Positions 2 through 32,471 of a stretch of 38,588 bases of DNA are shown one piece after another. The stretch is from the IMG/VR virus record IMGVR_UViG_3300049437_000096, positions 1 to 38,588 of that record. One strand, written 5' to 3'. The notes under the pieces are model-generated. The model was not told the origin of the DNA. It ran no database searches and saw nothing but the letters and a program-made list of their open reading frames with translations. Numbering within the stretch: the first letter of the stretch is position 1; the number at the start of each line of letters is the position of its first letter. Origin of the DNA: a virus. Taxonomy: Duplodnaviria > Caudoviricetes. The translations under genes and the position numbers were made by a program.

Positions 2-667
2 AATAGGATCATAGTTCGCAAAGCCAGGGGGAACAGCTCCGTAGTAGCCTGGGGGAACAGCTCCGTAGAAGCCAGGGAGAACAGCTCCGTAGTAGCCAGG
101 GAGAACAGCTCCGTAGTAGCCTGGGGACAGGCCTGCATCCGGATCCAGTCGGAAGCCGCTGCCATAACGCTTTGGGGCTTTGCAGTGGCTTTTCTGTTTC
201 TTAAAACTGCTAAAGCAATTCTCAAATCAAAAACTGCAACAATCATTACACCGGAGAGAAAAGAAGGCACTGACGGCTGGTTGGAAGATGAAGGGATCGA
301 GCCGGCGGACAAAGTAATTTTATTCAAGCGCGTTTCTTCCGATTACAAAACTCAGGAAGGCGAGCGATGGGAAGCTCGCTGGCCAATCGGACTTCAATTA
401 GAACATTTGGCTTGGGAGCCGACGACAAAGGAATGCGGAGGAGGAAAGTTTCACGCCTGCTCGCGGCCGTATTTCTGCGATGAGTTTCGCAATAACCTCG
501 GCGATCGTTATATCGCCATCGAGATTGAAAAGAAAGATCTATACGCCTGGCCGAATCCTCAATATCCGCACAAGATTGCATTCAGGGCAGGCAAGGTTTT
601 GTATGAGTGCGATAAGCACGGAAGAAAAATCGAACAATTAGCAGCAGCCGGCGAGTGCAAGAAATAG
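2..667 (+). CDS. 5'-truncated phage protein with NSSV(V/E)A(W/R)(G/E) octapeptide repeats and a C-terminal Cys/His domain (DUF7666-like)
   Basis: Frame 2 is open from position 2 into the 185..667 ORF: ARGNSSVVAWGNSSVEARENSSVVARENSSVVAWG. The C-terminal region has ECGGGKFHACSRP. Confidence 0.75.
   Translation, partial: NRIIVRKARGNSSVVAWGNSSVEARENSSVVARENSSVVAWGQACIRIQSEAAAITLWGFAVAFLFLKTAKAILKSKTATIITPERKEGTDGWLEDEGIEPADKVILFKRVSSDYKTQEGERWEARWPIGLQLEHLAWEPTTKECGGGKFHACSRPYFCDEFRNNLGDRYIAIEIEKKDLYAWPNPQYPHKIAFRAGKVLYECDKHGRKIEQLAAAGECKK
23..127 (+). repeat. 24-bp coding tandem repeat, 4 full copies plus a partial
   Basis: GCC(A/T)GGG(G/A)GAACAGCTCCGTAG(T/A)A at 23, 47, 71 and 95; partial copy at 119. 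Confidence 0.95.
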
Positions 668-2878: not shown

Positions 2879-3436
2879 GTGGAAGCCGTAGAAGTTTGGA
2901 AGTGGAATAGAAAACGGGAATATGCAGCCGAGCTGCTAGCCGAATCGCTGCTGTCATACAAAGAGATCTGCGCGAAAGTCAAATGCAGCACGGTTGCTCT
3001 GCGCAACTGGAGAAACACCGAAGAATTCAAAAAACGCGTTGACGATCTCGCCGCAGAACTGCGCCTTGAGATCAGAAATAAGGGAATTGCGATTTTGGAA
3101 AATCGCGTCATGTCTTATAACGACCGATGGCAGCGAATGCAGCGGGTGATAACCGAAAGAGCTGCGGATAAACAATTCCAAGGCGTTCCTGGGGGAGAAA
3201 CCGGGCTTCTGTGTCATAAGGTCAAATCCATAGGCTCAGGAGAATTCGCGACCATGGTCGACGAATACGAAGTGGACACCGGCTTACTAAAAGAAATGCG
3301 AGAGCATGAAGAGCAGGCCGCAAAAGAACTCGGCCAATGGCAAGACAAAGGCGATTTGAAAGACGACGGCCGAATGATTGTCATCCAGTTTGCAAACCTT
3401 CCTGCTCCGCCCTGGGCGGACATGGCTCAAAAATGA
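2879..3436 (+). CDS. terS: Terminase small subunit
   Basis: N-terminal HTH (YKEICAKVKCSTVALRNWR), helical middle region, directly upstream of terL with ATGA overlap. Confidence 0.75.
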   Translation: MEAVEVWKWNRKREYAAELLAESLLSYKEICAKVKCSTVALRNWRNTEEFKKRVDDLAAELRLEIRNKGIAILENRVMSYNDRWQRMQRVITERAADKQFQGVPGGETGLLCHKVKSIGSGEFATMVDEYEVDTGLLKEMREHEEQAAKELGQWQDKGDLKDDGRMIVIQFANLPAPPWADMAQK

Positions 3437-4992
3437 GACTGCGCAATGTTATTTTGGGGATTGTTTTAATGGCGACCGCATCCGCGATGCTGCAGGCTGT
3501 AGATTTACGCTGGCCGGCGCGCAATGACGGCATTGTCGGGCCCAGCGCCAAACAGCTGCAGTTTATAAATTGCTCCGCTAAAGAGCAATTAGGAGGCGGC
3601 GCCAAACGCGGCGGGAAGGGTATTGTCGGATCGGCGAAAGCGATACTTCTTTCAGTTTTGTTTCCTGGTAATCGTGGGCTGATCGGCCGGCAGGCCTTTA
3701 CTGATTTGCGCGACTCCACGATGGTTTCCTTCTTCCAGATGTGTCCTCCGGAGTTGATCCTCGATCACAATAAAACGGAACATCGTCTTATCCTCCGGAC
3801 GCGCGATCCGAAGCGGCCGAGCGAAATTATTTACCGCGGCATCGGTGAAGATTCAACGTTGTCCAAAAAGGCCAAGGATAAACAAAAGTCCATCGAGCTT
3901 GGATGGCTATGGCTAGACGAAGCGTCTGAATGCTCTTTTGACGCCTATCGGCAGCTATTAGCTCAGCTTTGCTGGAGACTTCCTGACGGCCGCCGGCCGC
4001 CATACATGGCTATGCTGACCAGCAATCCGGAGCCGGGCTGGGTAAAGGATCGTTTCGTCGATGCTTCAAGCCAGGATTACGTTATCGATCCGACAGATCC
4101 GGCAAAAGCTGCTTTCATTCAGTTTCTTCCTCGAGATAATCCGGGATTGCCGCCAGGCTGGGAAGATGAACTCAGGAAATCAATGGATCCGGATTGGGTC
4201 CGCCGTTATTTGGATGGATCCTGGGACATCCACGAAGGGATGGTATTTACCGAGCTCAGCGAAGAAGTGCATGATTTGGATCGATATATAGATCCAAAAA
4301 ACGGGGAGCTCTGGACCAAGTTTCATTGGCAGATGCGGCACATTTCAAGTTTGGATTACGCCTCTACAGGCATTATGGCTTATGTCATGACGGGCATCGA
4401 CAGTTCGGAAAATTGTTTTGGGCTTGAATCCATTTACGAGAAAGACAAGCTCATCTCCGAGTATGCCAAGATGATTAAGCTGCTTGATTCCAGATACGGA
4501 TCCATTGATTACCGCCTGGTCGATCCAAGCACGGAAAATAAAACCCTTCAAAATCGCGAAGAAATGATTTCCGTCCAGGACGCCTACGATCGCGAGGGCA
4601 TCAACTTGCAGTCAGCAATCCGGAGCGAAATCCGGGTCGGGATTGATCTAATAAAGCAGTACTTGCATTTCAATCCGCTGCATATAAATCCGTTTACGCA
4701 GAAACTGGGATCCCCGCGGCTATGGATTAGCAAGTCGCGCAACCCGGCCGGCTGGAAGGAAATGGTCGGGCTGAAAACTGAAGTCAAGCCAAACGGAACA
4801 ATCGTTTACAAAGGGGCTGATCACTGGATCGACAATCTGCGCTATATCCTGATGAGCCGGCCGGCGGCCGCAGAGCTCAAACGAATGGATATTCAGAAAC
4901 TCCCGACGCACGATCAGATCGCAGTCAAAAGCATGGATAGATTCTTCGAAAACTGGGGCCGCGAGGACAGCGGAGAGGGGAGCTGGTTTTAA
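3433..4992 (+). CDS. terL: Terminase large subunit (start 3433, or alternatively 3469)
   Basis: Walker A GGAKRGGKG, Walker B LWLDEA, coupling motif TSNP, nuclease motifs SLDYA and DHWIDNLRY. Confidence 0.95.
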   Translation: MRLRNVILGIVLMATASAMLQAVDLRWPARNDGIVGPSAKQLQFINCSAKEQLGGGAKRGGKGIVGSAKAILLSVLFPGNRGLIGRQAFTDLRDSTMVSFFQMCPPELILDHNKTEHRLILRTRDPKRPSEIIYRGIGEDSTLSKKAKDKQKSIELGWLWLDEASECSFDAYRQLLAQLCWRLPDGRRPPYMAMLTSNPEPGWVKDRFVDASSQDYVIDPTDPAKAAFIQFLPRDNPGLPPGWEDELRKSMDPDWVRRYLDGSWDIHEGMVFTELSEEVHDLDRYIDPKNGELWTKFHWQMRHISSLDYASTGIMAYVMTGIDSSENCFGLESIYEKDKLISEYAKMIKLLDSRYGSIDYRLVDPSTENKTLQNREEMISVQDAYDREGINLQSAIRSEIRVGIDLIKQYLHFNPLHINPFTQKLGSPRLWISKSRNPAGWKEMVGLKTEVKPNGTIVYKGADHWIDNLRYILMSRPAAAELKRMDIQKLPTHDQIAVKSMDRFFENWGREDSGEGSWF

Positions 4993-6107
4993 TGAAACGT
5001 GCACTAATAATTTTCTTTTTTCTACTCGCATCAATAGGATTTTGCGCAAATCCTGGGCCCTTCAAAGGCACCAAAATTGCCGGGATCGATATCGTAACAG
5101 CATACGGAATATACTCTGCATCCTATGGCACTGCTGCTCTGGCATCTCTGAATGCTGGCTGGGCCGCGCGATTTTGTGCGCCCGATACGAGAGATGTCAA
5201 AAGCGTTCGACTTTATTGGTCTACGATAAGCGCTCCAGGAACAGTGCGAATCCAAATACAGCCGATTGATTTAGCAACGGGCAAGCCGACAGGCACGGCT
5301 TATGATGCCAATGCGACAATCGACATTACGCCCACGGCGGGCGTTCAAACTGTCACTTTCGCAACTCTACCTGCAACGGGATTGACGGCTGGCGCATGGT
5401 ACGCAGTGACGGTAATTACCACTGTTGGTGGCACCACTCAAACTCTTTTGAGTGGTTACACATCGGTTCTCGCCAATCATCCAGTGCGCGTAATGACGAC
5501 AGCAGATGCGGGAGCGACATGGACCCTGACAACATCTACAAATCCTGTGGCGAGTATAATTTTCGAAGATGACGCGGAAGACGATCTTGGGTTCATCAGC
5601 GCTTATACTTCTGGCATGACCAACATTTACGGGACCAATGCCACATCTGCTCTGTTCACCACATCAAGCTCGATAAAAATTGCAGGTATCTGGGCGCAGA
5701 TCGTATACAGTGGTGCGCCGCCTGGTGATTTCATTGCAGCTATTTATGATTCGGTCGGCAATGTTGTTTCTGGCAGTTCCTTGGCCATCGATAAGGACAT
5801 TGTCGAAGCTACAGGCAGACAAGTGGTATGGCGTTTTGCGCCTGTAATCTTGCCAGCTGGCACGTATAGGATTGTACTTTCGTCGCCAGGGTCAAATTCG
5901 AGCAATTATTGGCGCAGCATCTATCTTTCTTGTTTATCTGCCGCCCTGGTCCCTAATTTCCGCAGCTGCACAACTGCTGATCTGACCGCTAATCCAGTGG
6001 TGTGGGATGACAGTAATACGACTCGCGTGTTTTTTGGCGGGCTGATTCTAGATGATGTTGTTGCAGGCGGCGGCGCAGCTTTGAGCCGCATCAGGACGGG
6101 AATGTAA
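4992..6107 (+). CDS. Signal-peptide-bearing, T/A/G/S-rich protein with two beta-sandwich repeats (putative virion adhesin or decoration protein)
   Basis: Leader MKRALIIFFFLLASIGFC; two related units ending LTAGAWYAVTV and LPAGTYRIVL. Confidence 0.6.
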   Translation: MKRALIIFFFLLASIGFCANPGPFKGTKIAGIDIVTAYGIYSASYGTAALASLNAGWAARFCAPDTRDVKSVRLYWSTISAPGTVRIQIQPIDLATGKPTGTAYDANATIDITPTAGVQTVTFATLPATGLTAGAWYAVTVITTVGGTTQTLLSGYTSVLANHPVRVMTTADAGATWTLTTSTNPVASIIFEDDAEDDLGFISAYTSGMTNIYGTNATSALFTTSSSIKIAGIWAQIVYSGAPPGDFIAAIYDSVGNVVSGSSLAIDKDIVEATGRQVVWRFAPVILPAGTYRIVLSSPGSNSSNYWRSIYLSCLSAALVPNFRSCTTADLTANPVVWDDSNTTRVFFGGLILDDVVAGGGAALSRIRTGM

Positions 6108-6109
6108 GA

Positions 6110-6922
6110 ATGAAAAAATATTTTCTAATACTTGCTCTCATTTTCTTTTGCCTCCCCGTGTTCGCGGGCGAAAGGATCCCGCAATCGATTGCAGTCAGAG
6201 TGCCTTTAAAGGCGTATCTGTCCAGCGATCATGTCAGCGCAGCGACGGCCAAAACGATCGCGATAGTGATATCAAAAAATGGCGGCGCTTTTGGCAATCC
6301 AGCGGCCGGGGCAACAAACGCCACTGAGATTGCAAACGGTTGGTATTACGTGGATCTTGGGACAGGCGATACAGACACCTTGGGGCCCTTAATCGTGCGC
6401 GGCACATGCGCAACCTGCGACGATGTTGAGCCAAATCCTTATACGGTTGTGAATGCTAATACCGGAGGACTGGGATACCTGGACGCGGCAATCACTTCGC
6501 GCGGGACAGGGGCTGCCTTGGACGCGGCTGGAGTCCGAGGCGCGGTTGGACTTGCCGCGGCCAATATAGATACTCAGCTATCTGGCATCAGCACGAAAAC
6601 GACAAATCTTCCTTCGGATCCGGCCGATGAAAGCTTGCTGGAAGCTGCCATAGCCGCCCTAAATAATCTTTCGACAGCGCAAGTAAAGGCTCAAATCGAC
6701 GCCGCCTTAAATATGGACTCCGGGACAGAGCTGGCGGCGATCCCAGCTGCAGCGGCTGCCTTGCGTACACAAATTCAGCTGATTTATCAAAAACTCAGGA
6801 ATGAGGAAAAAGTCGATTCCAACGCAGGAACGCAGACAATATCGAATGACGCAGGGACGGTCATCGGAACGGCAAACGTTTCAGATGATGGAACGACATT
6901 CACGAAAGGCGAAATGCACTAA
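6110..6922 (+). CDS. Signal-peptide-bearing putative fibre or decoration protein (Ig-like N-domain, Ala-rich stalk)
   Basis: Leader MKKYFLILALIFFCLPVFA; ISKNGGAF..TEIANGWYYVDL domain; C-terminus VSDDGTTFTKGEM. Confidence 0.6.
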   Translation: MKKYFLILALIFFCLPVFAGERIPQSIAVRVPLKAYLSSDHVSAATAKTIAIVISKNGGAFGNPAAGATNATEIANGWYYVDLGTGDTDTLGPLIVRGTCATCDDVEPNPYTVVNANTGGLGYLDAAITSRGTGAALDAAGVRGAVGLAAANIDTQLSGISTKTTNLPSDPADESLLEAAIAALNNLSTAQVKAQIDAALNMDSGTELAAIPAAAAALRTQIQLIYQKLRNEEKVDSNAGTQTISNDAGTVIGTANVSDDGTTFTKGEMH

Positions 6923-7176
6923 TGGCAATCGACTCGAAGAAAAAGCGCGGATCCGTTATCGAGATCGTTGTGCCGTCTGGATCGATAGACGAAGAAGAGC
7001 GTCCGACCGTTGCCGGGATTTATGGTTTTAAGAGTAAATCTACGGCATCGCAAATCGCGCGGATTTCAAGTTTTAGAGTAGGCAATTCCACTGAGGTTTT
7101 TGGTAACGTCGAAAGCTCAACGAATATCAAATTTGAAGTTTGCGAATCGGTCCATATCGCCGCGGCGGTCATATGA
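6922..7176 (+). CDS. Hypothetical small structural-block protein
   Basis: Translationally coupled on both sides. Confidence 0.55.
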   Translation: MAIDSKKKRGSVIEIVVPSGSIDEEERPTVAGIYGFKSKSTASQIARISSFRVGNSTEVFGNVESSTNIKFEVCESVHIAAAVI

Positions 7177-7481
7177 TCATAAAAATGCTGAGAGGTTCTA
7201 AGCCTAGGCTGAAAATAACCCTGACTGATCCGGTTACAAAAGCTTTCGTTGATCCGACAGGCTTATCTCTTTTGATCAAGGATCCGCAACGCGGGGAGAC
7301 AACCTACACATATTTATCCGGAGCAACAATCGTGCGATCGTCTCTGGGCGAATACTATGCGGACATCGATATGAGCAGCATGAATGGCGACTGGTTGTGT
7401 CGATGGGAAGCAAGCGGAACCGGTCAGGGGGCGGCTGAAGTCACAATACGCATTTATAGCCCGTATGATGGAGTGATTTAA
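7173..7481 (+). CDS. Single Ig-like / BppU-N-like beta-sandwich protein
   Basis: ATGA start at 7173; LTDP..VDPT...GEYYADI...GDWLCRWEASG pattern. Confidence 0.6.
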   Translation: MIIKMLRGSKPRLKITLTDPVTKAFVDPTGLSLLIKDPQRGETTYTYLSGATIVRSSLGEYYADIDMSSMNGDWLCRWEASGTGQGAAEVTIRIYSPYDGVI

Positions 7482-8701: not shown

Positions 8702-10945
8702 ATGAAAAGCATTCTGGATCTGATCGGCTTGGGAAAATCCCAGAGCGGCGGCGAAGCTGCGCGCGGGGACATGACGAAAAAAGTCGAAGAATGGACGATG
8801 GAAAAATGGAAAGCGCTTAAAAACGCTTATGTCGTTTTCCATCAAAACACCTGGCGCTGCAGGTTATTTGCTGTTGGAGAATCTTACATCGATGTGGACC
8901 GCCAGACCAAATACTGGATTCCGGCGACTCCCAAAGATGAATGGGTTCCGCAGCCGCGATTCAATCAGTTCACGCCGGCGGTCGACGGCATGCTTGCGAA
9001 TTTCAATACCGTGCCTGAGATTGAAGCCGAGCCGCAGCCGAAAGACGATGCGCGGGCAATGGGTATTGCAGAGATAGCGAATGAGCTGTGCAGCTATGTC
9101 ATAAAAGACAATGCCCTTCGCGCTGATTACAAAAGCAAGGAAGACAGGGCCGGCCAGGCTGCAATTGATTTTGTATTGTCCGGGTGTTGTTTCACGGATG
9201 TGCACGTTCAAAGCGTCGCCGAAGGTAAGCGTCCCAAAAAAGACATGCAGAATCTGCACGGGTTCCAGTGCGTGGATTGTGATTTATATCAGACTTCGGC
9301 GGAGCCTGTCGCCAATTGCCCTCAATGCGGTAAACCCGTGACCAGCTCGCCCACCGGGCAGCTTGCGGAAGCAAAAGACGAGCAAGGCGAAACGGTGATG
9401 GAGGATGTGGTAAAAAAGCGCATCGTCATCGAAATCGCCGATCCCTTGGAAATATTTCCCCGGCCTGGGGCAAAGAACATGGCTGGGACGCCGTATTTGA
9501 TTTATGCGACCCGACTTTCTTTGGATGATATTTGGTATCGGTGGAACTACGAAGCCACGGCAGACTCGGAATATCCCGATTCATTCAACCTGATGATGGA
9601 GTACTCGCTCAATTACTACTATGTTGGATACACTCAAAATTCCAATCAAGCGAAAGACGGCGCGCTTGTTATTCAGGCCTACGCCGAGCCCAACAGGCTG
9701 AAAGATTATCCTGAGGGCTTCTACGCGGTTTGCGTCAACGGCAAGTGCATACACTATAAAACCTGGGCGGAAGAATTTCCGGAAGCCGAGCATCCGATTA
9801 CAATGGGATGCTATCAGCAGATGTCGAAGATTTTCTTTCCACGGACTCCCGCTTTCGATCTGTGCGATCTGCAGAAGTCTGACAATGAGCTCAACAGCGC
9901 AATCGAACTGCATGCAAAGGTAAGCGCAGCCGATACCCTTGTGATCGATAAGCGAGTCGCGGTGACCAAGCCGACCGGCCGCGCGGATAAAATTATTTAT
10001 GGGCAGCCTGTCAGCAGCGTACCTTTGCGTGAATCGATATTCCGCCTGCAGCACGGATCCATGGACGAAGGCATTTATTTGCAGCGCGGCCGCATCAAGG
10101 ATCAATTTCAGACAGTCTCTCATGATGTAAGCGTCTTTCACGGCGAGCAGCCGGGATCGGTTACTGCCGCGAGCGGCCTTGCATTGTTGCGCGGACAGGC
10201 GGAGCTGCAGTATGCCAAGCCGACTCAGAACTGGAACGCGCTGTGGAAAGAGACGGTCCGGAAGGCGATTAAGTGCATCCAGAAAAACTGGAGCGTAGTC
10301 GAAATAGCGGAAATTGTGGGATCGGACAAAATGACGCAGATTTCCGACTTCCTTAAAGCGGATCTTGATAAGTGTCTAAATTTTACCGCGACCATGACAG
10401 GCCTTCCCCGGACGCGCGACGAGCGCCGGCAGGAAATGATGCTGCTGTATGACAAAGGCGCGCTGGATTTGAGCGATCCGAACGTCAAGCAAAAGATATT
10501 TGAGTTATTCGGCGAAACCGGGATGCTGAAAACCTTCTCCGATGATGCGCGCCGGGCTCGCATCAATATCCGGAATATCAGAACTACCGGGCAATGCAAT
10601 CCATTCCGGCCGGATATCGACGATCCTGAAACTCACCGCGGGATCGCGCTCGAAGCCGCCAAGAGCATCGATTTCGACGCCTGGCCGCCTCAGGCCCAGG
10701 ATGCTTTATACGCCTATATCAAATCGATTCCTCCTCCGGAAGCCAAGGGAGACAAAGGCAAAGGTCCAAGCGAATCGATTTCATACAAGGATTTGCCGCC
10801 TGAGGGGAAAATGCAGATGGCGGCTCAGGCTGGGATATCTCTCAGCCCTGAATCAGTTGTTCAGCAGCACGTTGAACAAACTTCGCCTGGAGCAGCTCCG
10901 CAGGGCGCGAATCTTCCTATAGCGCCGAGCCAGGGAAGCAAATAA
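8702..10945 (+). CDS. Portal protein (large podovirus type) with zinc-ribbon insertion
   Basis: 747 aa; position between terminase and scaffold/capsid; EIADPLEIFP, GEQPGSVTAASGLALL and C-terminal SISYKDLPPEGKMQMAAQAGI; CVDC...CPQC insert. Confidence 0.85.
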   Translation: MKSILDLIGLGKSQSGGEAARGDMTKKVEEWTMEKWKALKNAYVVFHQNTWRCRLFAVGESYIDVDRQTKYWIPATPKDEWVPQPRFNQFTPAVDGMLANFNTVPEIEAEPQPKDDARAMGIAEIANELCSYVIKDNALRADYKSKEDRAGQAAIDFVLSGCCFTDVHVQSVAEGKRPKKDMQNLHGFQCVDCDLYQTSAEPVANCPQCGKPVTSSPTGQLAEAKDEQGETVMEDVVKKRIVIEIADPLEIFPRPGAKNMAGTPYLIYATRLSLDDIWYRWNYEATADSEYPDSFNLMMEYSLNYYYVGYTQNSNQAKDGALVIQAYAEPNRLKDYPEGFYAVCVNGKCIHYKTWAEEFPEAEHPITMGCYQQMSKIFFPRTPAFDLCDLQKSDNELNSAIELHAKVSAADTLVIDKRVAVTKPTGRADKIIYGQPVSSVPLRESIFRLQHGSMDEGIYLQRGRIKDQFQTVSHDVSVFHGEQPGSVTAASGLALLRGQAELQYAKPTQNWNALWKETVRKAIKCIQKNWSVVEIAEIVGSDKMTQISDFLKADLDKCLNFTATMTGLPRTRDERRQEMMLLYDKGALDLSDPNVKQKIFELFGETGMLKTFSDDARRARINIRNIRTTGQCNPFRPDIDDPETHRGIALEAAKSIDFDAWPPQAQDALYAYIKSIPPPEAKGDKGKGPSESISYKDLPPEGKMQMAAQAGISLSPESVVQQHVEQTSPGAAPQGANLPIAPSQGSK

Positions 10946-10970: not shown

Positions 10971-11624
10971 ATGCCTCAAATATTTGTAGGGCCGCCGTAT
11001 TGGCCGGATGGCCCCGGACCAGATCAGCGTCGGGCCGGGCGAGACGGCGACATGATGGTTTCTCAGCTGCACGGAGCTTATGCAGAGCAGAACAGACGTA
11101 GCAACCTGTTGTGCTACAACTCCGGAGCGGCCGGGATAACCATTTTGAAGTATGACAATGTGAATCCGGCGTTGGTAATATGGAATAAAAACGCGAAACG
11201 ATCTTTGGAGCTAGTGGAATGCGCTCTGAGCTGGATCGGGACGCCGGCGGTTGCGGGAAGCATTGGATTGGGTCTGATTCCCGGACCCTTGTATAATCCT
11301 GCGACGGGCGCGGCGATTTCCGCTTTCACGGAGCTGGCGAGCGTGTTGCGCATGTCCGATCTTCAGTCTGTCAATCCCGCGAATGGAAAATGCGCCACTA
11401 CGAGCACGATCGTCGCGCTCGCGGCCGCGGCCTTCTATCCGCTCTTTTCGCTGCCGGACGCACTGGCGGCGGCGTCCACTACAGTTCCATTGTTCGAACT
11501 GTGTCATCAATTCCGAGGTGATTTTTTCGTGCCTCCCGGAGCTGCTTTAGTAGTTTGCGGCAATGTCGCTCAGACTGCGGCGATGGGCTTCCGGCTTTCC
11601 TGGCTTGATAGCCTGGAAGCTTAA
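10971..11624 (+). CDS. Putative virion (head decoration or cement) protein
   Basis: AGGAG RBS; Ala/Gly-rich beta protein in the head module. Confidence 0.5.
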   Translation: MPQIFVGPPYWPDGPGPDQRRAGRDGDMMVSQLHGAYAEQNRRSNLLCYNSGAAGITILKYDNVNPALVIWNKNAKRSLELVECALSWIGTPAVAGSIGLGLIPGPLYNPATGAAISAFTELASVLRMSDLQSVNPANGKCATTSTIVALAAAAFYPLFSLPDALAAASTTVPLFELCHQFRGDFFVPPGAALVVCGNVAQTAAMGFRLSWLDSLEA

Positions 11625-11636
11625 GGAGAAATTGCT

Positions 11637-12164
11637 ATGGGAATGATGAGATTAACGCTGCAACAAACCATTACTCTCACTGCGGCGCAATGCCAGGCCA
11701 ACGGCGGCGTAATGGACAATGTCGTATCAAAGTCTTTCGGCGGAAATGCGATCAAGAAGTTGTTGGCTATACTGCGGATTGTTTCCGCTGATCGCACGAA
11801 CACAGACGAGACCTATGATTTTTACCTCACCGCCTGGAAGCTTCTCGCTAGCGGAAATTACGCGCGATGGGATCTGGTGCATTTCCCTCAGATTGCCGCC
11901 GCGGCCGCCGCGATTTACACCGCGGATGTAAAGGATATGGGGCCTTATCCCCAGAATGTCACAACCGCAGGGCCTGGAGTCGCCGCCGTAACAACGGCGA
12001 CGATGGCTGTAGTAACGGCGGGAGCCAATCAGGGCATCCGCACTCTGGGAGCCGGATTGATCCGCCATGGAAACCTGGGGGAAGGGCTGAGTTATTCTCT
12101 TGCGACCGGAGGCACTACAGCCGGTCCAATTTCGTTCGAACTGGATGTTTCGGCCTGGTTCTAA
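11637..12164 (+). CDS. Putative virion (head decoration) protein
   Basis: AAGGAG RBS; Ala/Thr/Gly-rich beta protein in the head module. Confidence 0.5.
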   Translation: MGMMRLTLQQTITLTAAQCQANGGVMDNVVSKSFGGNAIKKLLAILRIVSADRTNTDETYDFYLTAWKLLASGNYARWDLVHFPQIAAAAAAIYTADVKDMGPYPQNVTTAGPGVAAVTTATMAVVTAGANQGIRTLGAGLIRHGNLGEGLSYSLATGGTTAGPISFELDVSAWF

Positions 12165-13098: not shown

Positions 13099-14400
13099 AT
13101 GTCTGTCGACACCACTACCTTTTTAAGCGATTTAAAAATCGTCTACGGGACGATTCAAGATCAAATCAGCCGCGAGCCCATGTTTATGAATTTATTGGGA
13201 GACGGCAGCAAACTCGGGCGCCCGATCAGCTCCATCGGCGGCGGCACCCGCGGCTATCAATTTCTTGCATTGCTTCGGCCTAACTGGAGACTGGGATTCA
13301 GGCCTGAATCCAGCACGGTCGGAGTCGGAACCGATGGCAATCAGGGGCTCAAAGAAGCAACGGTGCTCCTCAAATACGCCTATTGCCCGGAAGTCATCAC
13401 GGGCCAGGCGGAAAACCTTTCGCGTGGGGACATGAAGGCTTTCATGCAGGCCAAAGCCCTTGCGGCCAAATATGACATGAAAGATGTTCTTTCTCATTTG
13501 AACGTGATCGCGGTCGGAGCGGATCGCAATGGCCAGCTGGCGAGCGTCGCTGCGGCTCCAGCTCCTGGAGCGGGAACGTTTTATGCGGATAATGCAAGCG
13601 GCTTTCCGGGCGCGATCTACCTGCGGGTAGGAATGCCGATCGACACCTATACGGTGGGCGGCGCTGCTGCTGCCACTACTTCCAACCGGACTATTACCGC
13701 GATCAACTATGCTACGCGGCTGGTCACTCACTCGACCGATACGGCTTTAGCTGCTGAAGCCGTATGTCTCTCGGGAGAATCCTGCACTGTGGCCCAGTAT
13801 CCGACCACGATGGAAGGATTGATTTCCTTGGTCAGCGACACCGGCGCGCTTCAGGGCCTCGATCCGTCAGTTTCCGGCCAGGAATCCTGGAAATCATTCG
13901 TCAAGGATGTATCCGGCGATGATCTGTCGAGCTTCTACATGCATCTGCTTCGGCAAAAAGTAAAAAACTACTCCGGAGAAACTCCGGATCTGTTCTATTT
14001 CCCGTCGGCTCAGATCGCCCAGCTGGTCAAGTTTGCGACTCAGAATTATCGCTTCGAGACCAACAGCGGCAAAGCGATCGGAAAAAAAGCCCTCGACCTG
14101 GGATTCGACGTATTCGAATACGCGGGCCTCGCGATTATCGAGGACAAGGACGCGCGGCCGGATCGCATATTCTGCGGCGCTTCCGAAGCAATCAGCAAGT
14201 TCGAAGCCGTGCCCCTCAGCTTGGCCGATGACGAATCCGGAGTTTGGACGCGCATCATCGCGAGCACTGGAATCGTCGATGCCGTAGCTGGACTGCTTCG
14301 CAGCTATCTCAATATCGGAATCCTCAAGCGCTCCGCTTGGGGCTGTCTGAAAGGCTTGTCCGTAGACAGCGCATTCCTGGATTACCCTGTAACAGTTTAA
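13099..14400 (+). CDS. Major capsid protein (HK97-fold expected)
   Basis: GAGGA RBS; 433 aa; follows the scaffold; ends before a double hairpin; TMEGLISLVSDTGALQGLD and FEYAGLAIIEDKDA motifs. Confidence 0.85.
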   Translation: MSVDTTTFLSDLKIVYGTIQDQISREPMFMNLLGDGSKLGRPISSIGGGTRGYQFLALLRPNWRLGFRPESSTVGVGTDGNQGLKEATVLLKYAYCPEVITGQAENLSRGDMKAFMQAKALAAKYDMKDVLSHLNVIAVGADRNGQLASVAAAPAPGAGTFYADNASGFPGAIYLRVGMPIDTYTVGGAAAATTSNRTITAINYATRLVTHSTDTALAAEAVCLSGESCTVAQYPTTMEGLISLVSDTGALQGLDPSVSGQESWKSFVKDVSGDDLSSFYMHLLRQKVKNYSGETPDLFYFPSAQIAQLVKFATQNYRFETNSGKAIGKKALDLGFDVFEYAGLAIIEDKDARPDRIFCGASEAISKFEAVPLSLADDESGVWTRIIASTGIVDAVAGLLRSYLNIGILKRSAWGCLKGLSVDSAFLDYPVTV

Positions 14401-23729: not shown

Positions 23730-25931
23730 ATGAAACGATTTCTTGGCCTGCTTTGTCTGGTCCTGGCGATAGCCTTGCCTCTTCACGCCACTTCTTTGAC
23801 CGGAACGATCAAGCGTCCGGACGGGACATCTCTTACGGGAAAGCTGCGCCTCACTTTATCGCATCCGGCGCATGACAAAGTTGCTGGGACCGTCGTCGTA
23901 CCAGCTCCAGTGACTTTCAATGTCACCTCCGGAGCGCTGCCTGGCGCGGCTGCAGTCGTCGGCAATGACTCTCTTGAGCCGACCGGCACTTATTACTGGG
24001 CAGAATATTTCACTGCGGGCGGCTCTAAGATAATGTCGAACGCCTTCTACATTACCGGCATCGCCTTCGATATCGGCGCCGCCACACCGACCACAGTGAC
24101 AACGAATAATATTAGTTACGTTCCGCCTCTTGATGCCATATCGAGCACGGATTTATCCGCCACGACCACGGGCAAAGGGGCGCAAATGGTCGGCTTCAAA
24201 CAGACTGGGACAGGAGCTATTGCTACCACTGCCGACGCTATCCTGAAAGAATTTCCGACGCTGAAAACACAGGGAGCCGCCGGCAACGGAGTGACAGACG
24301 ATTCGACGGCGCTATCAAACGCCTGCGCCGCCCATACATCTGTGATTGTAGGGCCTGGCACTTACAAAATAAATACCGATACGACCATATCGGCATGTCA
24401 GCTCGTGTTTCTGGGTGGGCAACTGTCGCCCGGAACGGGGAAAACATTAACTATTGCAGCTCCAGCCTCGATTGATGCTCAAGCATTTCAGATCTTCACC
24501 GGCGCGGGAATTGTAACATTCACGAATTATGTTGGATCGGTGCGGCCGGAATGGTGGGCTTCGAATACCACGCCGGGCACAACGGATATGACAAACGCGA
24601 TTAAAGCCGCCTATGCAGCCTGGCCGAAAGTAGCGCTGGATGGGTATTATTTGGTCACCGATACAATCACTATTAATCAGCGGTTTTCCGAAATTGGAGG
24701 AAGCGGCAATAATAAAGGCACGATTAAATTCAATCCTGTATCGGCAAAAATCCTATTCGACCTTACGGGATGCACTTACAACTCCGGTTATTTTGGGGCG
24801 AAAAATGATGTCATACGAAATTTAATTCTGACAAGTTCAAACGCCGTAAAAAAGACCGGCATTCACATTGACGATGGAAGCGAAATATTAATTGAGGGAA
24901 TCCAAACCGACAATGTTTACTGGACATCCAGCACCAATGACTCAATCGGCATTCAGACAAATGGCAGGGAATTCATTTATGTTAAAAAATGCGCCATTTG
25001 GGCCGAATACCCAATAATAATAGACAACAATACGAATTTTATTGCCCATACCGGACTCGGTCCATCCATTATCAGCGCTGATTTATTTCATTTTTCCGAC
25101 TTGAACCTGGTAACGGGCAAATCGGACGGGACGTCCGCGGGACACTACTGCATTACAGCTGCGAATGAAGCCAGCATATACAACAGCACTTTTAGCCAAA
25201 TTTTTGGCGGATTTGGAAAAGGCGTGTTTTATTTGCACAACACTGCTTCCACTGGCGGCAATTCATTGGCCGTGAAATTCGTAGATATTCGGCATGAACA
25301 GGGGGATGCGGACGCAATTAGCTGGGTGATTTATTGGTTCGATACAAGTTATTACACGCTTGGCCTGACAATCGAAAACATACATGCTTCTTTTCAGGTG
25401 CAAGGTCCCTATATTGTGGGCGTTTCCGGGCTGACCATAAAGAATTTAATATCGCTGAACAATACTGGCACGCAATACACCTTCGCCATCGACAATGTAA
25501 TGGCCGGAACGATGGAAAACGTTATAGGCAGGATTGGGGCAACCTATACATTCGGCTTCTGTTTTGCGACCGACATCCAGTACAGCGAGAACGCCAGCTA
25601 TCGCACATGGTACAAAGCCACGATTGCGCCTGCGAATGAAACCGGCTGGACCGCCCCCACGCTATCGGGCGCATGGGCGCTTCAGGAAACGGTTGGATAT
25701 CGCAAAAATTATGACGGCGAGGTCCGGCTAAAAGGAGCTGTCAAGTCTGGCTCCGGCGCTATATTCACACTGCCCGCAGGCTTTCGACCGCCGGCCGATA
25801 AATTTTTCGTAGTCCCTGGAGACACCGCCCTGGCCGTTGTTTCCGTACAAACTACCGGAGTTGTTACGCTGGTCACTGGAGCCGCGACCAGCGGCCTCTA
25901 TCTCGATTCGATCTCATTCAAAATCAACTAG
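23730..25931 (+). CDS. Tailspike / depolymerase (pectate-lyase-like beta-helix) with N-terminal signal peptide
   Basis: AAGGAG RBS; leader MKRFLGLLCLVLAIALPLHA; GAAGNGVTDDSTAL motif; N/T/I-rich beta-helix; C-terminal IFTLPAGFRP domain. Confidence 0.8.
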   Translation: MKRFLGLLCLVLAIALPLHATSLTGTIKRPDGTSLTGKLRLTLSHPAHDKVAGTVVVPAPVTFNVTSGALPGAAAVVGNDSLEPTGTYYWAEYFTAGGSKIMSNAFYITGIAFDIGAATPTTVTTNNISYVPPLDAISSTDLSATTTGKGAQMVGFKQTGTGAIATTADAILKEFPTLKTQGAAGNGVTDDSTALSNACAAHTSVIVGPGTYKINTDTTISACQLVFLGGQLSPGTGKTLTIAAPASIDAQAFQIFTGAGIVTFTNYVGSVRPEWWASNTTPGTTDMTNAIKAAYAAWPKVALDGYYLVTDTITINQRFSEIGGSGNNKGTIKFNPVSAKILFDLTGCTYNSGYFGAKNDVIRNLILTSSNAVKKTGIHIDDGSEILIEGIQTDNVYWTSSTNDSIGIQTNGREFIYVKKCAIWAEYPIIIDNNTNFIAHTGLGPSIISADLFHFSDLNLVTGKSDGTSAGHYCITAANEASIYNSTFSQIFGGFGKGVFYLHNTASTGGNSLAVKFVDIRHEQGDADAISWVIYWFDTSYYTLGLTIENIHASFQVQGPYIVGVSGLTIKNLISLNNTGTQYTFAIDNVMAGTMENVIGRIGATYTFGFCFATDIQYSENASYRTWYKATIAPANETGWTAPTLSGAWALQETVGYRKNYDGEVRLKGAVKSGSGAIFTLPAGFRPPADKFFVVPGDTALAVVSVQTTGVVTLVTGAATSGLYLDSISFKIN

Positions 25932-25940
25932 GAGCCGCCC

Positions 25941-26165
25941 ATGATACTTACTCCCGCTGAATTCTGGCCAATTTTAGCCGCTGTTGTGGTCGTCGCATTT
26001 GAAGCCGGCCGAATGTTCGAAAAAATGCTGCAAAGTAAGTTTACGTCAAAGGAAATGTGTTCGACGATCCATAAAAATCTCGAAGTGCGCCTGGATCGCA
26101 TTGAAAAAAATCTGGATAAAATCTGGAACAAGCTTGACGGCCAGAAAGTGCAAGAGGAGAGCTAA
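25941..26165 (+). CDS. Holin- or antiholin-like protein (1 TM plus coiled coil)
   Basis: AGGAG RBS; FWPILAAVVVVAF; RLDRIEKNLDKI; coupled to the endolysin gene. Confidence 0.6.
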   Translation: MILTPAEFWPILAAVVVVAFEAGRMFEKMLQSKFTSKEMCSTIHKNLEVRLDRIEKNLDKIWNKLDGQKVQEES

Positions 26166-26665
26166 TGCTTATCTCGAGAGATCTTTCTTTGGTATTTGCT
26201 CCGTTCGCCGAGCAGCTCCGGGATTTTGAAGCGCGCCTGGCTGCAGCAAAGCTGCCGTTTTATCTGTATATGGCGCTGCGCACGTTTGAAGATCAGGATG
26301 AACTGTACGCGCAGGGCCGCACAAAACCCGGCTCAATTGTCACGAACGCTCGCGGCGGCGACTCCCTGCACAATTACGGTTTGGCGGCCGACTACGTGCT
26401 TGACGGCATGCCGGCGAAGCCGGGCGTCCAGTGGAGCTGGGACACGAAATTCGACTCGAATCAGAACGGCCGATCCGGCTGGATGGACCTGGGCGCGATC
26501 GCGCGAGCCGCCGGCTTGGAGTGGGGCGGAGACTGGAAGCGTTTTCCGGACCTGCCACATGTTCAAAATCGATACGGCCTCACCCTGGCCGAAATTAAAG
26601 AACTCTATCGCAGCTGCAGGAATGATCTAAAAGCATTCTGGGCGGCTTTAAAGGAGCACGTATGA
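26165..26665 (+). CDS. Endolysin, M15 family L-Ala-D-Glu peptidase (CwlK/Ply500-like)
   Basis: RTFEDQDELYAQGRTKPG.IVTNARGGDSLHNYGLAAD, WGGDW and DLPHVQ. Confidence 0.92.
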   Translation: MLISRDLSLVFAPFAEQLRDFEARLAAAKLPFYLYMALRTFEDQDELYAQGRTKPGSIVTNARGGDSLHNYGLAADYVLDGMPAKPGVQWSWDTKFDSNQNGRSGWMDLGAIARAAGLEWGGDWKRFPDLPHVQNRYGLTLAEIKELYRSCRNDLKAFWAALKEHV

Positions 26666-26832
26666 ACTGGAATCAGCATTTGGATAAGTTCATCGCTGTT
26701 TTTGTATTTTTGATCGCAGTCGGGGTTTTCATGAAATCCGACAGTGAATTTGCAAAGGGCCTGGTCACCGGCGCCATGCTGACGATCAGCACTCTGTTGA
26801 GAGGCATAGATGCCAATGGAAAAAACCCTTAA
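26662..26832 (+). CDS. Small 2-TM holin candidate (56 aa, absent from the ORF track)
   Basis: AAGGAG RBS; ATGA overlap; translates to MNWNQHLDKFIAVFVFLIAVGVFMKSDSEFAKGLVTGAMLTISTLLRGIDANGKNP. Confidence 0.7.
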   Translation: MNWNQHLDKFIAVFVFLIAVGVFMKSDSEFAKGLVTGAMLTISTLLRGIDANGKNP

Positions 26833-27508
26833 ATGGATACTGCTCGTCGTCTCTATTTTCGCTATTGCAGAAATCGGTCTGTTGATTTGCGATCTTCGAT
26901 CGACGGTGAAAGAAGCCTCTAAAACCGTCCAGGAAGCTAGAGGCGCGATCGCGGACGTCCGGAGCTATACGGCAGAGCAAATGAAGCATCTTCGGGATCC
27001 GCGAAACGCTAAAGCGATTGACGCGGCCATTCAGACGGCGGCCATGTTTAACGCAACCGGCAGATTGATCAATCGTTCAGTCATCCCGCGAATCAATCAA
27101 AACCTGGACAATCTGTCGGAATCGACTGCCAGCCTCAATCGGCTAATCGCCAACGTTGACAAATCCGTCAATGACGAAATTGCTCCGGAGCTCGCCGGCG
27201 CGATCCAGTCTTCGGACGATTCTCTGAAAGAGCTTTCGAAAATGCTCTCAGAAGCCTCAGGACGGACGAACGCCTCTTTGGATGACATCCATCGTATTTT
27301 GTCGGATCCCGCAATGACGGCTACACTGCATGAGCTGCAGTCCATTTCCGAGCACGTCGACGGAGTCGCCGGCGAAATCGAAGAATCATCCCAGCAAATG
27401 CCTTCGATCGCCGCCAGTTTGGAGAAAATCGCCAAAACCTCCAGCAAGTATCAAAAGTTCGTTCTTCTGTCTCAAATTCTGTCCGCGATCGGGCGGACAT
27501 TCTTTTAA
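26810..27508 (+). CDS. Membrane-anchored long coiled-coil protein (i-spanin-like candidate)
   Basis: N-terminal TM WILLVVSIFAIAEIGLLIC, about 190 aa of heptads, hydrophobic C-terminus; lies in the lysis cassette. Confidence 0.55.
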   Translation: MPMEKTLKWILLVVSIFAIAEIGLLICDLRSTVKEASKTVQEARGAIADVRSYTAEQMKHLRDPRNAKAIDAAIQTAAMFNATGRLINRSVIPRINQNLDNLSESTASLNRLIANVDKSVNDEIAPELAGAIQSSDDSLKELSKMLSEASGRTNASLDDIHRILSDPAMTATLHELQSISEHVDGVAGEIEESSQQMPSIAASLEKIAKTSSKYQKFVLLSQILSAIGRTFF

Positions 27509-27539
27509 AAATCACAATTCACAATTTAAGGAGAATCTT

Positions 27540-28097
27540 ATGAGACGCATTCTAATGCTTCTTCTGGCATTGTTGTTTTTTCGTCCTTTTGTGGGACTGG
27601 CTCAAGAGCAACCCCCCATAAGTCGATTTTCAATAGATGCTTCCGCTATGGGTTTTTCTGGCGCCTCTCAATCATCAGCCGCGACCATTATTGGCGGATC
27701 TGTCGGCATGACCAAACGATTTGCGTTGGGATATCAGCAAATTCTTGTTCCGGATTTAAACGCGAACTATTATCTGGGAATTGCTACTTACACGCTGCAA
27801 CTAAAAACCCTTTTGGGTCAGAGGATCAGCGCAGCGCTGATATTCGATGCTTCAAAATTCAATGTGCGATTCTTGGGAGGCGCTGGCGTGAATCGCCAGC
27901 AGTTGAGCGAACCCTTGAATCAAAAGATCGCTGCTACATTGGGCGGAGCACTGGAATATTCAGCCAATAACACTTTATCGGTTGAAATTTTTTCAGCTCA
28001 ATGGATTCATGCCGGGATTAAGGGATTTGAAAAGGATCGGTTTGTGGTTACGCCTAACACGGCGGCGATCGCCAGCGGGCTAAAGCTGAAATTTTGA
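27540..28097 (+). CDS. Outer-membrane beta-barrel protein
   Basis: AAGGAG RBS; leader MRRILMLLLALLFFRPFVGLA; alternating amphipathic strands; C-terminal GLKLKF beta-signal. Confidence 0.7.
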   Translation: MRRILMLLLALLFFRPFVGLAQEQPPISRFSIDASAMGFSGASQSSAATIIGGSVGMTKRFALGYQQILVPDLNANYYLGIATYTLQLKTLLGQRISAALIFDASKFNVRFLGGAGVNRQQLSEPLNQKIAATLGGALEYSANNTLSVEIFSAQWIHAGIKGFEKDRFVVTPNTAAIASGLKLKF

Positions 28098-28146: not shown

Positions 28147-28833
28147 TTATAGTTTATCGGAGCCAGTCTTCGTATCGGTCGATTTTTTTCCATTCATTTC
28201 ATTTCTTAAAAAATTAAGAGTATCATCAATGGACTTTTTTAATGCATCTGCAATTTCGCTTTTGTCATAACCCAATTTTTTCCCTAATAAAAACGCTTCG
28301 GTGATTCTTTCCTCCAACGATGATGGTTTTATAAGCTTTGGAAAATCAGCACGAAATGCGTTGCTGTAATTGTTGAATTTGGACTTGGTTGCCCATGTGA
28401 TCAATTTTAAATATATATTCCCTTGCTTTATTAGGGTTATTACGTAAGAGCAACTAATTCCATTGCCAATACCGGATAATTCGAATTGCAATGCGCTTTT
28501 GCCAGAAACATAAATGGTCTTAGGGTAAATGACTGTTAGTGAACCCAGATCTTCTGCTAGTTTTCCCATAGCGACCAGGGCATATTTTTCCAAATTCCAG
28601 CCTTCTCGGTCACTCATATCATCAACTCTTGCGACTATAAAAGCAGCATCTAGTTTATGTTTCAGCCTAACAATATCTTCTTCGTCTTTGTCTGGATCCA
28701 TTTTTTCCCAACCATCAGGCACGGCGATCTCAATAGAACCATCTTGGCTGCTAGCTGAATTGAAGATTTCAGTTTTTTCTTCGGCGAAAATTGGTGAAGC
28801 TAATAAAAAAAACAAGAGAGCTAATGGCTTCAT
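28147..28833 (-). CDS. Exported PsbP/DcrB-like-fold protein (moron; possible superinfection exclusion)
   Basis: Leader MKPLALLFFLLASPIFA; IEIAVPDGWEK and IYVSGKSALQFE; AT-rich; co-oriented with the repressor. Confidence 0.6.
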   Translation of the reverse strand: MKPLALLFFLLASPIFAEEKTEIFNSASSQDGSIEIAVPDGWEKMDPDKDEEDIVRLKHKLDAAFIVARVDDMSDREGWNLEKYALVAMGKLAEDLGSLTVIYPKTIYVSGKSALQFELSGIGNGISCSYVITLIKQGNIYLKLITWATKSKFNNYSNAFRADFPKLIKPSSLEERITEAFLLGKKLGYDKSEIADALKKSIDDTLNFLRNEMNGKKSTDTKTGSDKL

Positions 28834-31621: not shown

Positions 31622-31905
31622 TCCTAACCGTCGCCGATGAAGCTTTGCAAAACATCAACCGCCTGCTGCAGGCCCGCTCAGCCTGCCAGTCTATTCTCCG
31701 CGAAAAGTACTGGAGCATTGTAAAAGGGTTCAAGGATGAAATCCTCGAACTCACAAGAAAAACTTGTAAGTCTCCCATTGAAATAGCCGCCGAGCGGGTC
31801 CAGATCATGGTTGATCAGATGCTCATTCTCTACACGCTGGCCGGTTGTATCGAAGCAATCGAGGAGATTTCAAATTCCGTATACAGAAAGGCAATTAATC
31901 AATGA
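31618..31905 (+). CDS. Hypothetical protein
   Basis: ATGA-coupled at both ends. Confidence 0.6.
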   Translation: MILTVADEALQNINRLLQARSACQSILREKYWSIVKGFKDEILELTRKTCKSPIEIAAERVQIMVDQMLILYTLAGCIEAIEEISNSVYRKAINQ

Positions 31906-32471
31906 ATTTGGATTTAGTAATCGATCAGCTCCAGGCGGAATACGACAAGATCGGAGCGGCGATCGAAGCCTTGAAAAACATTAGCAATGATCCGCCGGCG
32001 ATCGCGCAGGCTCCGGAGCCCTCAAATGAGAGGACAAAACCGGAAGCAATCGTCAAAACGACCAAAACTGGGAAGCTTCCTGCAGGCGAAGCAAAAGGAA
32101 AGATCGTTCAGTTTTTGCAAAAGCATCCCAACTCGACGAAATCAGCCATGGAATTGGCTCTGGCGCTAGAGGCATGGACAATTGATTGGCATTTGCGCGA
32201 ACTGCTCAGCAAAAAGCAAGTAATAAAAACGGGCATAGGCAAGGCGGCAACCTATTCGCTGATTCCAATTACATTCCCCAGCAAAACGAGTTCTCCAGAC
32301 AAAAAATTCTTTTGCGAGCCATGCCATGCAACGTTTGTCGATCAGCAGCATTTAGAAGAGCACATCAAATTGCGCCATTCCAATGAGCAAAAATTTCCAT
32401 GCGATGAATGCGATAAGAATTTTGCTACAGAGGGAGATCTCACCGCGCACAAGTTGAGGAGGCATCCATGA
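31902..32471 (+). CDS. Coiled coil plus winged HTH plus two tandem C2H2 zinc fingers
   Basis: KIVQFLQKHP...WHLRELLSKKQV..TG.GKAATYSL winged HTH; two copies of F-x-C-x2-C-x3-F-x5-L-x2-H-x4-H. Confidence 0.8.
   Translation: MNLDLVIDQLQAEYDKIGAAIEALKNISNDPPAIAQAPEPSNERTKPEAIVKTTKTGKLPAGEAKGKIVQFLQKHPNSTKSAMELALALEAWTIDWHLRELLSKKQVIKTGIGKAATYSLIPITFPSKTSSPDKKFFCEPCHATFVDQQHLEEHIKLRHSNEQKFPCDECDKNFATEGDLTAHKLRRHP

What the first reader, a model, noticed from the sequence alone, without database searches (positions are those of the whole stretch)
4992..6922. Two secreted-type virion-like proteins between terminase and portal: possible export-dependent virion maturation system
Seen: both late-operon ORFs are tightly coupled to their upstream genes, so their starts are well constrained, and both begin with textbook Sec leaders (MKRALIIFFFLLASIGFC, MKKYFLILALIFFCLPVFA). 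Their mature parts look like fibre or decoration proteins. The tailspike shows the same feature. Established: tailed phages assemble in the cytoplasm and their structural proteins lack signal peptides. Inference: adhesins are folded or stored in the periplasm and dock on particles at lysis, or they are displayed on the lysogen surface. This is the strongest candidate for an undescribed system in the window.
Basis: partly seen in the sequence, partly recalled or inferred. Interest (0 to 1): 0.85.

Follow-up and report, generated by a model that had tools for sequence, protein, structure and literature searches.

The report
Phage fibre tip carrying export signals
Two neighbouring late genes of an uncultured short-tailed prophage begin with bacterial secretion-type leaders that most of their relatives lack; they likely encode the outer tip and stalk of a virion fibre that would be made outside the cytoplasm and join the particle only when the cell bursts, and the phage's DNA-packaging enzyme has a similar, unexplained leader.

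Summary
The leaders are add-ons: 1 of 16 A homologues and 3 of 119 B homologues have one, and leaderless relatives start where the leader would be cut. A is predicted as a two-domain lectin-like tip. B is an Ig-like domain, a stalk and a docking end. With leaderless C and D they likely form a plug-and-socket virion appendage. Leaders come genome-wide: 9 of 11 clade members put them on appendage genes, and the 2 without form one clade. Portal, scaffold and nozzle never carry one. Cultured phage phi18:3 has three MS-detected virion proteins with such leaders, so the premise that tailed-phage structural proteins lack them is wrong. Best model (0.6, inferred): A, B and the spike are exported, cut by signal peptidase I and dock at lysis. 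The terminase leader is unexplained; a second start codon is possible. This scan found the same trait before on other DNA. Ten paper searches found no description of the route. Verdict: a new variant, not a two-gene system.

The parts
3433..4992 (+). Large terminase (519 aa) with a 22-residue Sec-type leader (3433-3498) and in-frame internal Met13 (3469) and Met19 (3487)
   Evidence: PHROG 2, E 5e-26; ATG overlaps the TerS stop; leader shared with P0139 only, 1 of 119 homologues by the heuristic; Met13 has an SD-like site
4992..6107 (+). Protein A: leader (4992-5045, cut predicted after Cys18 or Ala19), two predicted jelly-roll/lectin-like domains, short C-terminal tag (about 6066-6104); likely receptor-binding tip
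   Evidence: Model pLDDT 82.7; VIA Z 14.5 (rmsd 2.4, 142 aligned) to phi812 baseplate, 13.7 PBCV-1, 12.4 Cwp84 lectin domain, 12.1 Bxb1 tail tip, 11.2 cyanophage A4 capsid; tag census
6110..6922 (+). Protein B: leader (6110-6166, V-F-A then Gly20), Ig-like domain (residues 20-120), helical stalk, conserved C-terminal docking domain (6680-6919)
   Evidence: Model pLDDT 85.9; generic Ig-like hits Z 6-8, including 80alpha baseplate chain at Z 6.9; phage tail and BppU-domain models; Atlas clusters 86-94% viral
6922..7176 (+). Protein C (84 aa), leaderless; its conserved first ~36 residues are the likely partner of B's C-terminal domain
   Evidence: C-family gene follows the B-type C-terminus in 40 of 49 loci; weak complex score 0.47 versus best control 0.00
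7173..7481 (+). Protein D (102 aa), leaderless; likely base of the chain (role inferred from position)
   Evidence: 34% homologue closes the accessory block of leaderless relative G001; no Pfam, PHROG or NCBIfam hit
23730..25931 (+). Tailspike/fibre (733 aa) with a 20-residue leader (23730-23789) in front of the conserved N-terminal domain
   Evidence: PHROG minor tail protein; sister spike matches tailspike PHROGs; leaderless orthologues in G001 align from window residue 21
8702..10945 (+). Portal, leaderless (context: core virion)
   Evidence: PHROG 156; no leader in 10 relatives
13099..14400 (+). Major capsid protein, leaderless here; three relatives have ~40-residue hydrophobic extensions
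   Evidence: PHROG 14242
25941..28097 (+). Lysis block: small membrane proteins, M15 endolysin, inner-spanin-like protein, and an exported barrel-like protein (27540-28097); implies a two-membrane host with a periplasm (inferred)

Best explanation
A and B carry secretion-type leaders and likely form the lectin-like tip and the stalk of a modular virion appendage (A-B-C-D) that would be exported through Sec, cut by signal peptidase I, folded in the periplasm, and would dock on the cytoplasm-built particle once lysis opens the inner membrane. Shown: the leaders, their absence from most homologues, the match between the leader end and the start of leaderless homologues, the gene-order rules of the chain, and the genome-wide concordance. 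Predicted: the folds and a weak B-C contact. Inferred: export, cleavage, periplasmic folding, virion location and timing. A's C-terminal tag would bind B's Ig domain. B's C-terminal domain would bind leaderless C, so the join crosses a compartment boundary. The tailspike would take the same route. The terminase cannot package DNA after export. It most likely works as a shorter form started at Met13, or with the leader left uncut as a tether; this step is a guess.
For: (1) Leader ends match the starts of leaderless homologues in three proteins: B Gly20, A Ala19, tailspike Thr21. (2) Leader state is concordant within genomes: 12 of 15 hand-picked appendage genes flagged in G002-G006 (the other 3 look leader-like by eye) versus 0 of 12 in G001 and L121. 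On the portal tree 9 of 11 rows are leader-positive and the 2 negatives form one clade, 100/100. Spike orthologues have a leader in the window, G002, G004 and G005, and none in either G001 copy. (3) Marks of real export in relatives: Gln right after the predicted cut in 11 of 13 accessory genes of G003-G006, read by eye; signal peptidase I and glutaminyl cyclase act on the periplasmic face (PMC5837995, passages). Two or more Cys in the last 70 residues of B-type proteins in 3 of 4 leader-bearing versus 0 of 45 leaderless; CxxC in B's Ig domain in 3 of 4 versus 4 of the 85 leaderless rows (of 116) where the segment was found. (4) Folds and families are virion-like, and the genes sit coupled inside the late operon with no promoter excess (5 found, 6.8 expected). 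(5) Chain rules: the upstream gene ends in the tag in 13 of 16 B loci versus 23 of 188 control genes (pattern made after seeing the data); a C-family gene follows in 40 of 49; B(191-270)x3 plus C(1-45) scores 0.47, best control 0.00, runs agree in at least 58% of contacts, partner pLDDT at least 56; the mark was reached by 116 of 157 solved and 2 of 215 mismatched pairs, but at 0.60 or under by only 18 of the solved and by both mismatches, so this is weak. (6) C is leaderless in 4 of 5 leader-bearing B contexts (window, L143, L158, L186; leader in L155). (7) Precedent: phi18:3 gp085-087, annotated as structural by MS/MS, have leaders with Gln+1, while 8 other MS-annotated proteins translated have none.
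Against: The terminase has the same kind of leader, kept in the sister phage (62% identical), and three relatives have hydrophobic extensions on the capsid protein. Both proteins must act in the cytoplasm, so a leader in this clade does not by itself prove export. The window's A, B and spike have only 0.8% Cys, like the leaderless set (0.8%) and unlike leader-bearing relatives (2.1%); mature A has an odd number (3); none has Gln+1. Leaderless orthologues exist in a close relative with a lipoprotein in its lysis block (G001), so export is not required for these folds. The Cys and Gln counts are on related, hand-picked rows and are not independent. No SignalP run, no virion proteomics, and the host is unidentified.
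Confidence: 0.6

Rival explanations
1. The leaders tether late proteins to the cytoplasmic face of the inner membrane, or are removed there, so that fibres, terminase and in some relatives the capsid protein assemble at the membrane without being exported.
For: One mechanism would cover TerL and the capsid extensions of G002, G005 and G006. Window A, B and spike show no Cys enrichment.
Against: Basic n-regions and A-x-A ends predict N-in insertion and export (established Sec biology). Gln+1 and leader-linked Cys pairs in relatives point to the periplasm. Portal, scaffold and nozzle have no leader in any relative checked. No phage protease was identified.
Confidence: 0.17
2. A and B are exported accessory proteins that stay with the cell (surface display, receptor masking, decoy or exclusion), like Lom, Bor or Cor, and never join the virion.
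For: A and B are absent from the sister phage G002, and the B family from 5 of 5 clade records searched, so they are optional. PMC10367356 (passages) reads similar leader-bearing phage genes as host-surface modifiers.
Against: No lipobox, membrane anchor or barrel end in A or B. They are coupled inside the late operon with no promoter excess. Most homologues are leaderless phage proteins in the same chain. The tailspike has the same leader.
Confidence: 0.13
3. The leaders are passengers: enough precursor escapes export during late infection, or starts downstream, and the fibre assembles in the cytoplasm as in leaderless relatives; export merely removes leaky or excess protein.
For: Leaderless orthologues exist. 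TerL has an in-frame Met13 with an SD-like site (-5.5 kcal/mol; 11.5% of 78 internal ATGs reach -5 or lower) that gives a normal-length N-terminus.
Against: A has no alternative ATG, GTG or TTG start in its first 22 codons; B and the spike each have one non-ATG codon inside the leader. A's leader persists on two long sister branches with unrelated sequences. Leader state is concordant across unrelated genes.
Confidence: 0.1

Closest known systems
Cellulophaga phage phi18:3 gp085-gp087 (GenBank KC821620.1, Pachyviridae)
   Same: Adjacent tail/fibre-type proteins of a tailed phage, annotated as structural from MS/MS, each with a Sec-type leader, while 8 other structural proteins translated have none.
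   Different: No homology to A or B was found (B's Ig domain and the spike N-terminus had no match in the phage collection). They have Gln+1; the window's do not. The record does not mention the leaders or an assembly route.
Chained phage fibres and upper-baseplate proteins (80alpha/TP901-1 BppU type; T4 gp34-gp38, recalled)
   Same: Ig-like domain plus helical stalk (weak structural hits); head-to-tail docking of successive gene products; swappable lectin-like tip.
   Different: Those are leaderless and assemble in the cytoplasm (established knowledge). The A-B-C-D families have no Pfam or PHROG match.
Porphyromonas gingivalis Nixviridae signal-peptide proteins (PMC10367356, passages read)
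   Same: Signal peptides on phage late genes, including capsid proteins and unknown Gln-rule genes.
   Different: The authors attribute capsid leaders to prohead-protease cleavage and the unknown genes to host-surface modification; the passages read give no virion-docking model and no terminase leader.
Filamentous phage (Ff) pIII and pVIII (recalled)
   Same: Virion proteins made with leaders cut by host signal peptidase I.
   Different: They stay membrane-anchored and assemble during extrusion without lysis. A and B have no anchor and belong to a portal/terminase phage with a lysis block.
Lambdoid Lom, Bor, Cor
   Same: Exported proteins encoded among late genes.
   Different: They are outer-membrane barrels or lipoproteins, not virion parts. 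A and B lack both features.

Membership tests
Sec/signal peptidase I substrates | Basic n-region, uncharged hydrophobic h-region, small residues at -3 and -1 | tested here: met
   Sequence and own heuristic with nulls; SignalP not available
Sec/signal peptidase I substrates | Leader is separable from the folded protein at the predicted cut | tested here: met
   Leaderless homologues start at the cut; A model residues 1-18 below pLDDT 50
Sec/signal peptidase I substrates | SecA/SecY-dependent export and LepB cleavage in vivo | not testable with these tools
   Needs fractionation and N-terminal proteomics
Lipoproteins (signal peptidase II; Bor/Cor type) | Lipobox [LVI][ASTVI][GAS]C (motif recalled) | tested here: not met
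   A has I-G-F-C, B has I-F-F-C; neither fits
Lom/Ail outer-membrane barrels | Transmembrane beta-barrel fold | tested here: not met
   Models give jelly-roll (A) and Ig plus helices (B)
Tailed-phage accessory fibre / receptor-binding proteins | Virion-type folds (lectin-like tip, Ig adaptor, stalk) | tested here: met
   predicted models only
Tailed-phage accessory fibre / receptor-binding proteins | Encoded in the structural operon of tailed phages | tested here: met
Tailed-phage accessory fibre / receptor-binding proteins | Present in the virion and binds a host receptor | not testable with these tools
   Uncultured phage; shown only for the analogous phi18:3 proteins by record annotation
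BppU upper-baseplate proteins | Sequence or clear structural match to BppU | tested here: inconclusive
   No Pfam hit; Z 6.9 with rmsd 10.6 to the 80alpha chain; weak Foldseek hits to BppU-domain models
Ff-type membrane-assembled virion proteins | Membrane anchor retained after leader cleavage | tested here: not met
   No transmembrane segment seen in mature A or B; phage has terminase, portal and endolysin

The most novel reading that the evidence does not exclude
A widespread group of tailed phages builds its particle in two compartments. Outer fibres and tailspikes are made in the periplasm and snap onto leaderless adaptors at lysis. The same signal-peptide route is turned on the DNA-packaging nuclease itself, either tethering the motor to the inner membrane or exporting most of it while a second start supplies the working form. 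Lineages switch the whole set of leaders on or off together.
Probability: 0.35. Interest if true: 0.88.

Novelty: new variant of a known kind. Interest (0 to 1): 0.66.

Why it matters
Tailed-phage particles are taught to be finished in the cytoplasm. A periplasmic step would let fibres gain disulfides or other envelope modifications and would keep adhesins apart from capsids until lysis. It would change how receptor-binding proteins of environmental phages are annotated and expressed, since exported late genes are usually filed as host-modifying extras. This window adds natural pairs with and without the leader for the same proteins, a predicted join between an exported and a non-exported part, and a leader on a terminase. 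A cultured phage (phi18:3) makes the central claim directly testable.

Tried and rejected
Pfam and PHROG gave nothing for A, B, C or D; NCBIfam gave only an E 0.036 match over B's leader. PDB sequence searches with the spike N-terminus and B C-terminus found nothing significant. tblastn of B's Ig domain and the spike N-terminus found no named phage; the portal found one at 21%. A single-protein TerL scan of viral contigs was empty; the alignment worked. RNA run X14 gave six short contigs scattered over the region, which says nothing on expression. No attL/attR pair or tRNA was found. Independent origins of B's leader are not shown: 3 changes on the tree but one clade not rejected, p-AU 0.43, 34 of 120 rows used. 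A's two leader-bearing rows are sisters (84/89), so one gain. The upstream gene of L143 could not be resolved. The spike-profile scan returned only the four records already held. Seven further B loci all had leaderless B. Lipoprotein and barrel readings of A and B were rejected. Ten paper searches found no description of exported tailed-phage fibres or a terminase signal peptide; the library lacks most subscription journals, and I did not open the supplements of PMC10367356, which may bear on this.
Full report
Setting. The window is a whole 38.6-kb contig holding a temperate short-tailed phage: small and large terminase, portal, scaffold, major capsid protein, nozzle, tailspike, M15 endolysin, repressor pair and integrase, then one probable host gene. 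It occurs in bioreactor metagenomes; 4 of 15 listed runs hold half or more of the words, one being the possible source. The host is unresolved between Deltaproteobacteria/Thermodesulfobacteriota and Acidobacteriota. The lysis block implies a two-membrane cell (inference).

Observation. A (4992-6107) and B (6110-6922) begin as quoted and are coupled to their upstream genes. Contigs from three other DNA runs show no differing letters where they cover the region. My heuristic, which is not SignalP, strongly flags six of 53 called genes: TerL, A, B, tailspike, a barrel-like lysis gene and one gene near the repressor. It flags 0 of 155 internal-Met starts and 0 of 4933 pseudo-starts.

The leaders are add-ons. 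One of 16 A homologues and 3 of the 119 listed B homologues (502 hits in all) have a leader. Database start calls could hide a few, but in the fetched loci the leaderless starts sit directly on the upstream stop. The leaderless forms begin where the leader would be cut: B's Gly20, A's Ala19 and the spike's Thr21 line up with residue 2 of their relatives. A's two leader-bearing members are sisters on long branches with unrelated leader sequences (84/89). For B the tree needs 3 changes but one origin is not rejected (p-AU 0.43; 34 of 120 rows).

What the proteins are. A is predicted as two jelly-roll domains. The best structural matches are the phi812 baseplate (Z 14.5, rmsd 2.4, 142 aligned), a PBCV-1 capsid chain, the Cwp84 lectin-like domain, the Bxb1 tail tip and a cyanophage A4 capsid chain. 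A full-length match exists in an uncultured phage (TM 0.63). B is an Ig-like domain, a helical stalk and a small C-terminal beta domain. Its structural hits are generic Ig folds with weak BppU-type matches, and its look-alike clusters are 86-94% viral.

The genes follow chain rules. In 13 of 16 loci with a gene adjacent upstream of B, that gene, mostly of unrelated sequence, ends in a short tag like A's, against 23 of 188 control genes. I made the pattern after seeing the data. Only 2 of 16 A homologues match it, so the tag tracks the downstream partner and not the body. A scan for B's C-terminal motif gave 61 loci; 56 had it at the end of a called gene and 49 were non-duplicate. A C-family gene follows in 40 of 49. 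Folding three B C-termini with C(1-45) gave weak support: 0.47 against a best control of 0.00, at least 58% contact agreement, partner pLDDT at least 56. The mark was reached by 116 of 157 solved and 2 of 215 mismatched pairs, but at 0.60 or under by only 18 solved pairs and by both mismatches. I read A-B-C-D as tip, stalk, linker and base of a virion appendage (inferred; the attachment site on the particle is unknown).

A genome-wide trait. Relatives sharing terminase and portal carry different accessory genes in the head module. The sister phage lacks A-D altogether, and the B family was absent from 5 of 5 records searched. In G002-G006, 12 of 15 hand-picked appendage genes are flagged and the other three look leader-like by eye; in G001 and L121, 0 of 12. 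On the portal tree 9 of 11 rows are leader-positive and the two negatives form one clade. Spike orthologues follow the genome: leader in the window, G002, G004 and G005, none in either G001 copy. Outside this clade, 4 of 49 B-type genes have leaders. The gene upstream has one in three of them (L155, L158, L186; L143 unresolved), whereas 0 of 166 neighbouring genes in the other loci do. C stays leaderless in 4 of 5 leader-bearing contexts. Portal, scaffold and nozzle had no leader wherever they were found in 10 relatives. In 68 more distant terminase loci only 3 of 520 genes were flagged.

Signs of real export. In G003-G006 a Gln follows the predicted cut in 11 of 13 accessory genes, read by eye; signal peptidase I and glutaminyl cyclase work on the periplasmic face in Bacteroidota (PMC5837995, passages). 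Two or more Cys in the last 70 residues occur in 3 of 4 leader-bearing and 0 of 45 leaderless B-type proteins, though those three may share one origin. A CxxC in B's Ig domain occurs in 3 of 4 against 4 of 85. Cys density averages 2.1% against 0.8%. Against: the window's own A, B and spike have 0.8% Cys, mature A has three, and none has Gln+1.

Precedent. Following a lead from earlier scan notes, I checked Cellulophaga phage phi18:3. Its gp085-087 are annotated as structural from MS/MS and all three have leaders with Gln+1. Eight other MS-annotated proteins that I translated have none; gp123 and genes before position 28000 were not examined.

The terminase puzzle. By the heuristic only the window's TerL and its sister (62% identical) of 120 rows have a leader; they are a sister pair nested among leaderless enzymes, and two other terminases have separate hydrophobic N-termini. 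The two leaders are both 22 residues with different sequences, which suggests selection on the peptide. Both hold an in-frame Met (13 or 14) that would give a normal-length N-terminus, with SD-like sites of -5.5 and -4.5 kcal/mol; 11.5% of 78 internal ATGs reach -5 or lower, so this is suggestive only. Three relatives also have roughly 40-residue hydrophobic extensions on the capsid protein. These cases keep the membrane-tether rival alive.

Mechanism. Most likely (0.6) A, B and the spike are exported by Sec, cut by signal peptidase I, fold in the periplasm and dock on leaderless partners when the inner membrane opens at lysis. Leaders, cut-site concordance, chain rules and genome-wide concordance are shown; folds and the B-C contact are predicted; export, location and timing are inferred. 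Rivals: membrane tether without export (0.17), cell-associated accessory proteins (0.13), passenger leaders (0.10).

Literature and novelty. Ten searches found no account of exported tailed-phage fibres or of a terminase signal peptide. I read passages only of PMC10367356 (signal peptides on capsid and unknown genes of P. gingivalis phages), PMC5723332, bioRxiv 10.64898/2026.10.24.761521, PMC12309495, PMC4936722, PMC3765740 and PMC5837995; no supplements. Statements on Ff, T4, Lom and Bor are recalled, apart from passages on Lom and Cor. This scan has reported export leaders on phage fibres many times on other DNA, and Tat-type leaders on a terminase; those notes are unchecked and are not counted as support. 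I class this as a new variant of a known kind, phage accessory fibres with an undescribed assembly route, at interest 0.66.

Noticed in passing
window 3433-3498: The large terminase starts with a 22-residue Sec-type leader, kept with a different sequence in the sister phage (L019 4775), with an internal Met that could give a cytoplasmic form.
   Followed up: partly
L019 12172-12290; L116 18073-18200; L119 2681-2810: Major capsid proteins of three relatives have ~40-residue hydrophobic N-terminal extensions that the window's capsid protein lacks.
   Followed up: partly
window 26810-28097: The lysis block ends with an inner-spanin-like coiled-coil protein followed by a Sec-leader, barrel-like protein ending in Phe, where a lipoprotein outer spanin would be expected; no family match passes a cut-off.
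   Followed up: no
window 21-140: Tandem 24-nt repeats at the contig's left end, in frame with and upstream of the ORF at 185-667; probably an 8-residue coding repeat.
   Followed up: no
window 28147-28833 (-): Low-GC, leader-bearing gene on the opposite strand next to the repressor; a candidate lysogen-expressed exported protein (exclusion or conversion).
   Followed up: no
window 10971-12164: Two conserved unknown genes (217 and 175 aa) between portal and scaffold, leaderless, shared with the closest relatives; possible capsid cement or decoration proteins.
   Followed up: no
L109 10398-19561 (G001): A leaderless relative has a ~9-kb block of accessory genes between terminase and portal, ending in a homologue of D.
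   Followed up: partly
window 31902-32471: Early gene with two C2H2-type zinc fingers at its C-terminus.
   Followed up: no
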